Source: Azolla caroliniana
Taxonomy: Eukaryota; Plantae; Polypodiophyta
NCBI GenBank assembly: GCA_043228905.1
Contig: JBHGNT010000004.1
Location: 23,684,001 to 23,748,000, forward strand
DNA: 64,000 bases
Direction: 5' to 3'
Positions 10,106 through 11,056 of this stretch are shown piece after piece. Below the pieces are notes generated by a model. It saw only the letters and a program-made list of their open reading frames with translations, did not search any database and was not told the DNA's origin. The position numbers and the translations under genes are program-made. Every line of letters starts with the position of its first letter. Position 1 is the first letter of the stretch.

Positions 10106-10812
10106 ATAAAATCAAACGGGGGACTATAAGCACGTTGAAAATTGTGCATGAATTGTCCTTAGTGACTTAACAAATGGTTTTGTTTTCTAAGGTGATTTAA
10201 ATGATCATTTATGGGGCCATCTTTTCCGTATCAAGCAATAAAAATGAAGAGATGATAGGGTGTTCGTTGATACCTTCTTGAAAGGTATTTAATATCCTCG
10301 AAGAATCAAGGGCATTTTGTCCATTTTATGTGAAAATTACATCGCTTCACATTTCACAGTCATGTGTTGAAATGTTTTGTTGTAGGGTGATTTGCCCCTC
10401 GTAAACAAAAAGGAAAACATGATATAATATCTCTTTATAATCTCTAAAAAAGACTTATATTTATTCGCCATGTTTGTGTTGGCTCGGTGTTTACATGCTA
10501 GCATTAAAATCATAAAAAAAGGTAGGAAAATGCCAAGTTCGATCCTCGCACGCGACTTGGCCCCGACTTGTATTCTGATAGATTCCCACGGAGATTAATG
10601 ATGGAAAACCTTTCCATTTGTCGTTGTTATAGTCAGTTCGGTTCACTGCTCTCAAAAAATGAGACAACAATTGAAGATGTAAATCACTCATTCAGTCTGA
10701 TACAATGGGACTAGTGTGTGTGGTTTCTTCTTCATAAATACAACTCTCTCTCTCTCTCTCTCTCTCATGGGCCAATTTTGGCCTTAGAAGACGTTAATAT
10801 ATCTTTCTTTCT

Positions 10813-10850
10813 TTTCTTGATGTTGTGCGTGTCATCCTTACGCAGGGGCC

Positions 10851-10882
<32 letters not shown>

Positions 10883-10902
10883 TCAGATGTCCCCGAAGGA
10901 AC
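10813..10902 (-). pseudogene. U6: U6 snRNA retrocopy, 3' end replaced by a foreign tail
   Basis: GTTCCTTCGGGGACATCTGATAAAATTGGAACGATACAGAGAAGATTAGCATGGCCCCTGCGTAAGGATGACACGCAC matches plant U6 from +1, including the ACAGAGA box and AGC triad. (GA)n lies directly upstream in place of USE/TATA, and there is no terminal U-run. Confidence 0.92.
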
Positions 10903-11056
10903 TCTTTCTCTCTCTCTCTCTCGCTCACTCTTTGGCCTTGGTTTGATCCTCACCATGGAGTAGGCCCCTCGTCCCATAGATCACAATCAGACTCCATAGT
11001 GGATGTTAAAAGAGATATGTATCTATCCATCTATCTAATCTTTCCTGATCCATGTG

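What the first reader, a model, noticed from the sequence alone, without database searches (positions are those of the whole stretch)
10745..10922. U6 snRNA head fused to a recurrent tail at (GA)n: candidate U6-derived SINE or chimeric retroelement family
Seen: on the minus strand, U6 nt 1 to about 90 switches at an AAGAAA-type microhomology into AAGAAAGATATATTAACGTCTTCTAAGGCCAAAATTGGCCCATGAGAGAG, with (GA)n on both sides and no U6 promoter. The same 45-nt tail occurs without U6 in an AGO intron (1499-1543), and its first 24 nt or so follow a (GA)n tract at 23818-23841. Three copies in 24 kb suggest a high-copy element. Known: U6-L1 template-switch chimeras in mammals and snRNA-derived SINEU in crocodilians. 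Inference: a microsatellite-targeting non-LTR system whose 3' end recruits U6, or a U6-headed SINE with 5'-truncated copies. I do not know of such a family described in plants.
Basis: partly seen in the sequence, partly recalled or inferred. Interest (0 to 1): 0.8.

Follow-up and report, generated by a model that had tools for sequence, protein, structure and literature searches.

The report
U6 copy inside LINE microsatellite tail
A shortened, likely dead copy of the U6 splicing RNA sits back-to-back with the tail end of a very common plant jumping gene (a LINE), likely because that tail's TTTC repeat primed a later reverse transcription of U6; it is not a U6-headed mobile element.

Summary
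It is the last ~46 nt of a high-copy LINE on the strand opposite to U6. In 87 metagenome loci it runs into a (TTTC)n/(TC)n tail on the U6-facing side (76 of 78). On the other side it runs into a shared 3' UTR and the end of an endonuclease/RT ORF2. 5' ends vary (45 positions in 60 flanks). None of 66 distinct 3' flanks carries U6. U6 (nt 1 to ~90, no promoter match) and the LINE lie tail-to-tail, which fits neither a SINE head, a template-switch chimera nor published twin priming. U6 splits an otherwise ordinary family tail, with TCTT on both sides. Best reading (0.55): a 3'-truncated 'tailless' U6 retrocopy primed on the T-rich tail of an earlier LINE insertion. The order of events and recurrence are untested: no genome, and no contigs over this locus. 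The family prefers (TC)n only moderately (9 of 60). The scan has noted U6-LINE chimeras in other genomes; none matched this by sequence.

The parts
10744..10765 (+). (CT)11 microsatellite, 5' target flank of the LINE copy; its last bases overlap the LINE's truncated 5' end (TCTC microhomology)
   Evidence: the family sequence at this point
   Evidence: identical to 1498-1543; equals the commonest form among 66 copies; continuous with ORF2 in L064, L011, L007; hairpin
10802..10818 (+). (TTTC)n tail of the LINE; its last bases are also compatible with antisense U6 and are the inferred primer; ends in TCTT
10813..10902 (-). 3'-truncated U6 snRNA retrocopy, exact 5' end, no promoter match; 10813-10818 shared with the LINE tail
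10903..10922 (+). TCTT again, then (TC)n: likely the rest of the LINE tail plus the target microsatellite
   Evidence: 4-nt overlap; 21 of 66 natural tails have the form TTTC units then (TC)n
1497..1576 (-). second copy of the LINE 3' end, about 52 nt with an internal 28-nt duplication, in an AGO intron; absent from organisms B and C
   Evidence: (X3 and X6 contigs join 1505/1504 to 1581 across a short GA repeat)
23819..23841 (-). third, extremely truncated copy (about 15 nt plus tail) inside a (TC)n array

Best explanation
A 3'-truncated U6 copy lies tail-to-tail with the 3' end of a high-copy LINE, and it was likely pasted into that LINE's (TTTC)n tail by a later, separate reverse-transcription event. 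Step 1 (element shown, mechanism inferred): an APE/RT LINE with a (TTTC)n tail inserted into a (TC)n tract by target-primed reverse transcription and was truncated after about 46 nt at a TCTC microhomology. Step 2 (inferred): a nick in the T-rich strand of that tail freed a 3' end ending in TTTCTT. This paired with the purine-rich single-stranded stretch near U6 nt 85-90 (five Watson-Crick pairs and a terminal T:G). An RT copied U6 to its exact 5' end, and the insertion resolved with a 4-nt duplication. The RT was likely a poly(A)-type L1 of this genome, because the primer is on the T-rich strand, which this LINE would not use for its own first strand; the LINE's own RT at a second nick is the alternative.
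For: Orientation: loose ends in four runs show (GAAA)n on the U6-facing side and a shared continuation on the other. Of the 88 matches in 87 loci, 76 of the 78 with 40 nt on the tail side end in a TTTC/TC repeat, and 57 of the 74 with 40 nt on the other side share the UTR. The UTR leads into an ORF that stops 187 nt before the tail and matches P0004 (RVT_1 E 3e-33, Exo_endo_phos E 3e-11). U6 has an exact 5' end, lacks its 3' end and has no promoter match. Doucet et al. describe 3'-truncated snRNA copies primed by a pyrimidine-rich target on a purine-rich snRNA segment (PMC4476161 section 8). TCTT flanks U6 on both sides; with U6 and one TCTT set aside, the tail has a form seen in 21 of 66 natural tails, and its TTTTC irregularity occurs in 7 of 66. 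The window has A where the Rfam consensus has G at the last shared base, as a T:G-ended primer would leave. Contigs with two LINE ends in tandem across GA-rich spacers show that tails are reused as targets (table 5). L1-type LINEs are present in the window (zf-RVT and RVT_1).
Against: The duplication is only 4 nt in low-complexity sequence and can be chance. The G-to-A change is also what CpG decay gives. U6 departs from the Rfam consensus at several columns while the LINE piece equals the commonest family form, which could mean U6 is older; the organism's own U6 was not available as reference. No orthologous site with the LINE but without U6 was seen. One locus only.
Confidence: 0.55

Rival explanations
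1. U6 came first as a tailless retrocopy primed by the (TC)n microsatellite; the LINE then inserted at the U6/(GA)n joint, primed from the GA-rich strand it normally uses.
For: The family prefers (TC)n sites: 9 of 60 distinct 5' flanks hold (TC)4 or more against 1.4% background (p 1e-7), and the empty AGO site is a short GA repeat. U6 looks more diverged than the LINE piece. The family inserted recently at the AGO site.
Against: It needs the TCTT on the far side of U6 and the tail-like interruption there to be coincidence, and the G-to-A change to be a later mutation.
Confidence: 0.22
2. One event: the LINE's own RT captured U6 at the tail, either by jumping onto U6 RNA at the end of second-strand synthesis, or by twin priming during re-insertion into an existing tail, leaving only a few tail bases of the new copy beyond U6.
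For: U6 is a known partner of LINE RTs of several clades, including RTEX-2 in Anolis (PMC4476161 section 10). The bases beyond U6's 5' end look like a family tail. Tandem LINE ends exist.
Against: 0 of 66 distinct 3' flanks carry U6 (upper 95% bound 4.4%). Rfam found no snRNA or tRNA in the 80 of 87 loci scanned. The junction motif gave 0 hits. Published twin priming puts the inverted snRNA at the LINE's 5' side.
Confidence: 0.17
3. The LINE inserted into a real U6 gene or targets U6, as Keno does U2.
For: U6's purine-rich stretch resembles the LINE's GA-rich target; Keno and Kibi are sequence-specific precedents (PMC4494074 introduction).
Against: No upstream element match, and the U6 3' end is not on the far side of the insertion. 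3' flanks are diverse.
Confidence: 0.03
4. U6-headed SINE, or template-switch/ligation chimera with the segment as a same-strand tail.
For: High copy number and three copies in 24 kb.
Against: The segment is the antisense of a LINE 3' UTR. Its 5' ends vary, 45 positions in 60 flanks. U6 is never found with it elsewhere.
Confidence: 0.02

Closest known systems
3'-truncated ('tailless') snRNA retropseudogenes (Doucet et al. 2015, PMC4476161, sections 6, 8, 10 and passages read; Noll et al. 2015, PMC5322556, passages read)
   Same: Exact 5' end, truncation in a purine-rich segment, complementarity to a pyrimidine-rich target, no added tail, no promoter.
   Different: Plant host (Noll et al. report only eight U2-derived cases, in maize, among the plants they screened); the target is the microsatellite tail of a LINE; the duplication is only 4 nt.
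Inverted snRNA/L1 chimeras made by twin priming (PMC4476161 section 6)
   Same: 3'-truncated snRNA in the orientation opposite to a 5'-truncated LINE.
   Different: There the snRNA joins the LINE's 5' side and both 3' ends face the target; here the two 3' ends meet in the middle.
U6/L1, U6/L2 and U6/RTEX-2 chimeras by template switch or RtcB ligation (PMC4476161 sections 6, 10; PMC6789731, abstract and outline)
   Same: U6 copy next to a short LINE 3' piece.
   Different: Those are same-strand with U6 upstream of the truncated LINE 5' end; this one is opposite-strand, lacks the U6 3' end and sits at the tail.
SINEU of crocodilians (PMC4494074, abstract, introduction and part of methods read)
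   Same: snRNA-derived sequence next to retroelement sequence.
   Different: SINEU are amplified families with U1/U2 heads; here U6 is not a head and was seen in one copy only.
RTE/RTEX-type LINEs with simple-repeat tails (PMC3472496 table 1, passages; RTE-X counted at 8,733 elements in Ceratopteris, PMC6890710 table 2, passages); Kibi/Koshi microsatellite-specific Tx1 elements (PMC4494074 introduction)
   Same: APE + RT ORF2, non-poly(A) repeat tail, heavy 5' truncation, lean to (TC)n.
   Different: A (TTTC)n tail is not among the plant repeats in that table; the (TC)n preference is moderate (15% of 5' flanks), not strict; clade not established by a tree.

Membership tests
U6-headed SINE (SINEU-like) | snRNA head 5' of a LINE-derived tail on the same strand | tested here: not met
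   opposite strands, tail-to-tail
U6-headed SINE (SINEU-like) | many copies with one fixed junction | tested here: not met
   0 of 66 distinct flanks with U6; junction motif 0 hits; the sample is a small share of the copies
U6/LINE template-switch or ligation chimera | sense U6 joined to the truncated 5' end of the LINE | tested here: not met
   U6 joins the 3' tail and lacks its own 3' end
Twin-priming inverted snRNA/LINE chimera | inverted 3'-truncated snRNA at the LINE's 5' side, inside one duplication | tested here: not met
   inverted and 3'-truncated, but on the 3' side of the 46-nt copy; met only if a second, tail-only copy is assumed
3'-truncated (tailless) snRNA retropseudogene | intact 5' end and 3' truncation in a purine-rich single-stranded segment | tested here: met
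   criteria
3'-truncated (tailless) snRNA retropseudogene | complementarity between target and snRNA at the 3' junction | tested here: met
   10813-10818 fits both the LINE tail and antisense U6
3'-truncated (tailless) snRNA retropseudogene | target-site duplication | tested here: inconclusive
   4 nt, low complexity
3'-truncated (tailless) snRNA retropseudogene | no snRNA promoter upstream | tested here: met
   (motif recalled)
3'-truncated (tailless) snRNA retropseudogene | empty orthologous site | not tested
   no contigs were obtained over this locus
APE-type non-LTR retrotransposon (the repeat) | ORF2 with endonuclease and RT upstream of the 3' UTR | tested here: met
   L064 ORF end matches P0004-P0006
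APE-type non-LTR retrotransposon (the repeat) | fixed 3' end with repeat tail, variable 5' truncation | tested here: met
RTEX clade | placement in an RT tree with named references | not testable with these tools
   no named references; RT 29% identical to the window's L1-type RT and about equally far from R2 and human L1; the C-terminal Cys/His motif (50 of 123 homologues) is RTEX-like from recall only
Microsatellite-specific LINE (Kibi/Koshi-like) | target in more than 20% of flanks (threshold in PMC4494074 methods) | tested here: inconclusive
   9 of 60 5' flanks (15%); 17 of 67 tails run into (TC)4 or more, where tail and target cannot be told apart

The most novel reading that the evidence does not exclude
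This plant LINE recurrently captures U6 (and perhaps other small RNAs) at its own 3' tail, by jumping onto the RNA at the end of second-strand synthesis or by re-cutting its (TTTC)n tails, giving a tail-to-tail class of snRNA/LINE chimera that records how second-strand synthesis ends.
Probability: 0.1. Interest if true: 0.6.

Novelty: new member of a known kind. Interest (0 to 1): 0.25.

Why it matters
As a single nested insertion it matters little. It does show a tailless U6 retrocopy in a plant, where such copies were reported as very rare (PMC5322556). It also flags a recently active LINE family of order 10^4 copies with a (TTTC)n tail that seeds and reuses TC-rich microsatellites and gives presence/absence markers between related organisms. 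If tail-to-tail junctions proved recurrent, they would be a genomic readout of second-strand synthesis in non-LTR retrotransposition, a poorly resolved step (own knowledge).

Tried and rejected
No whole genome is held, so the genome-wide tabulation asked for could not be run; contigs of public runs and metagenome loci stood in. No contig data were obtained over the U6 locus, so its state in organisms B-D is open. Exact-pattern scans found nothing in viral contigs or genome contigs. No RNA holder was listed; this says nothing on expression. Target-site duplications for the family: none convincing in the 88 matches; these low-coverage contigs may be mis-joined across the conserved core (L030/L050 and L042/L064 share a 3' flank but differ 5'). 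The 3' hairpin has no usable covariation, and its columns were fixed by the search pattern. The summed-depth ratios (12,431 to 25,715) are not copy numbers by the tool's own warning; I take them only as order of magnitude, in line with 2-3 copies per 64 kb. X1 may be the source sample, so it is not independent. The ESM Atlas gave only unnamed clusters. The bacterial promoter scan is irrelevant to a plant U6 promoter. The flanks of the U6 locus matched none of the 87 loci. The AGO protein search was uninformative for taxonomy. Considered and dropped: DNA-transposon or LTR end (the segment is a LINE UTR); DNA-level copy of a U6 gene with its flank (no promoter, no 3' end, flank is LINE). Literature searches with no matching description: 0 papers; 0 papers; the library omits most subscription papers and Repbase reports. 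Supplements of PMC4476161 (table S1) and PMC5322556 (table S7, maize) were not read and could hold tail-to-tail or plant U6 cases.

Full report
Observation. Rfam finds U6 on the minus strand (97.9 bits) with model position 1 at 10902; the match decays after a purine-rich stretch at about 10813. The next 46 nt are identical to 1498-1543, inside an Argonaute intron, and 21 nt recur at 23821-23841 (0 of 100 shuffles match). (GA)n flanks both sides. There is no match to a recalled plant snRNA upstream element near U6, and no U6 3' end nearby. The locus is intergenic, between the AGO start near 5970 and a Mog1 gene starting near 11370. The host is a plant; the species was not determined. The nearest named relatives of the repeat's protein come from the ferns Ceratopteris and Adiantum.

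What the 'tail' is. No genome is held, so I laid contigs of four public runs on the AGO-intron copy. Between 737 and 1,125 contigs per run were laid, almost all on the 50-nt segment; summed depth there was 1.2 to 2.6 x 10^4 times the flank, an order of magnitude only. Loose ends on the side that faces U6 were (GAAA)n or (GA)n (103-148 contigs per run at 1498). On the other side 70-80 contigs per run at 1546 shared a continuation. A scan with the 25-nt core returned 87 metagenome loci, 88 matches. The longest copies run into an ORF that stops 187 nt before the tail. That ORF end is 92% identical over 59 aa to P0004, a 1,075-aa protein with APE endonuclease and RT domains; relatives P0005 and P0006 share the whole C-terminus. 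So the segment is the 3' end of a LINE. Copies are heavily 5'-truncated: among 60 distinct 5' flanks there are 45 end positions, median 88 nt, 19 of 60 nt or less. The RT is 29% identical to an L1-type RT in the window and about equally far from R2 and human L1. I call it RTEX-like from recall of the C-terminal Cys/His motif; this was not tested by a tree.

Targeting and age. 9 of 60 5' flanks hold (TC)4 or more, against 1.4% background, and none holds the reverse repeat: a real but moderate preference. The AGO copy is missing in organisms B and C, whose contigs join 1505/1504 to 1581 across a short GA repeat, so the family was active after they diverged. Caveats: the pattern selects young copies, and some contigs may be mis-joined across the core.

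Geometry. On the plus strand the locus reads: (CT)11, LINE 3' end, TTTC tail ending in TCTT (10802-10818), antisense U6, TCTT again at 10903, then (TC)n. The 3' ends of U6 and the LINE meet in the middle. In Doucet et al. (PMC4476161, sections 6, 8, 10 read), template-switch chimeras are same-strand, and twin-priming chimeras put the inverted snRNA at the LINE's 5' side. Neither fits. Their commonest class does: 3'-truncated snRNA copies primed by a pyrimidine-rich target on a purine-rich snRNA segment. Noll et al. (PMC5322556, passages) describe the same 'tailless' class and found only eight, U2-derived, in maize.

Recurrence. U6 was not found in any of the 87 loci (173,228 bases). They hold 66 distinct 3' flanks, which bounds the share of copies with U6 below about 4.4%. 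Rfam found no snRNA or tRNA in the 80 of 87 loci scanned. The junction motif gave no hit. This excludes a U6-bearing family as the source of the copy number, but not a few dozen rare chimeras.

Mechanism. I favour LINE first, U6 second (0.55). With U6 and one TCTT set aside, the tail has a form seen in 21 of 66 natural tails. The last shared base differs from the Rfam consensus as a T:G-ended primer would leave it. The primer would be on the T-rich strand, which points to a poly(A)-type L1 as the mover; L1-type elements are in the window. All of this is inferred. Against it: the duplication is 4 nt of low-complexity sequence, the base change could be CpG decay, and U6 looks more diverged than the LINE piece. 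U6 first, LINE second (0.22) and one-step capture at the tail (0.17) remain open, because no contigs were obtained over this locus.

Novelty. Both parts are known kinds. I found no description of a tail-to-tail snRNA/LINE arrangement, a plant U6 tailless copy, or a fern LINE with a TTTC tail, but the library lacks most subscription papers and Repbase, and I did not read the supplements. Other papers seen: PMC4494074 (part 1 of 5), PMC6789731 (abstract and outline), PMC3472496, PMC3747384, PMC6890710, PMC5753468, PMC12477816, PMC11203168 (passages). Earlier notes of this scan list U6-LINE chimeras in other genomes, none alike by sequence and no snRNA note in this genome. Verdict: a real but most likely one-off nested insertion; interest 0.25.

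Noticed in passing
window 12207-12386 (+): Decayed fragment of an older relative of the same LINE (41% identical to P0004 over 63 aa); another with the same C-terminal motif at 44941-45177 (-).
   Followed up: partly
window 60806-61406: Perfect 284-nt inverted repeat with a 33-nt spacer next to a Copia-like RT/RNase H ORF at 61600-63324; the arms look like LTR sequence facing in opposite directions.
   Followed up: no
window 31104-35788: Element with two near-identical terminal repeats (97-99%) interrupting an L1-type LINE (30630-37768).
   Followed up: no
window 42310-44613: Transposase-like ORF (no Pfam hit) beside nested inverted repeats at 44098-44613; hAT-like from recall.
   Followed up: no
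window 38634-38720, 48047-48118, 51064-51138: tRNA-like sequences, probably SINE heads or pseudogenes; the first starts directly after a (GA)n tract; ARAGORN calls only 51064-51138, tRNA-Ala.
   Followed up: partly
window 51756-52202: Short stretch resembling the N-terminus of plastid rbcL (recalled likeness; ORF list), a possible organelle insertion.
   Followed up: no
window 23676-23900: Short (CCTAAG)n arrays on both sides of the third LINE remnant, apparently copied as filler at its 5' junction.
   Followed up: partly
L034, L027, L011: Loci holding two or three separate pieces of this LINE joined through (TC)n tracts or in opposite orientations; nested insertion or mis-assembly.
   Followed up: no
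window 56374-57775, 29521-30359, 28844-29285: Local tandem arrays of about 450, 165 and 129 bp.
   Followed up: no
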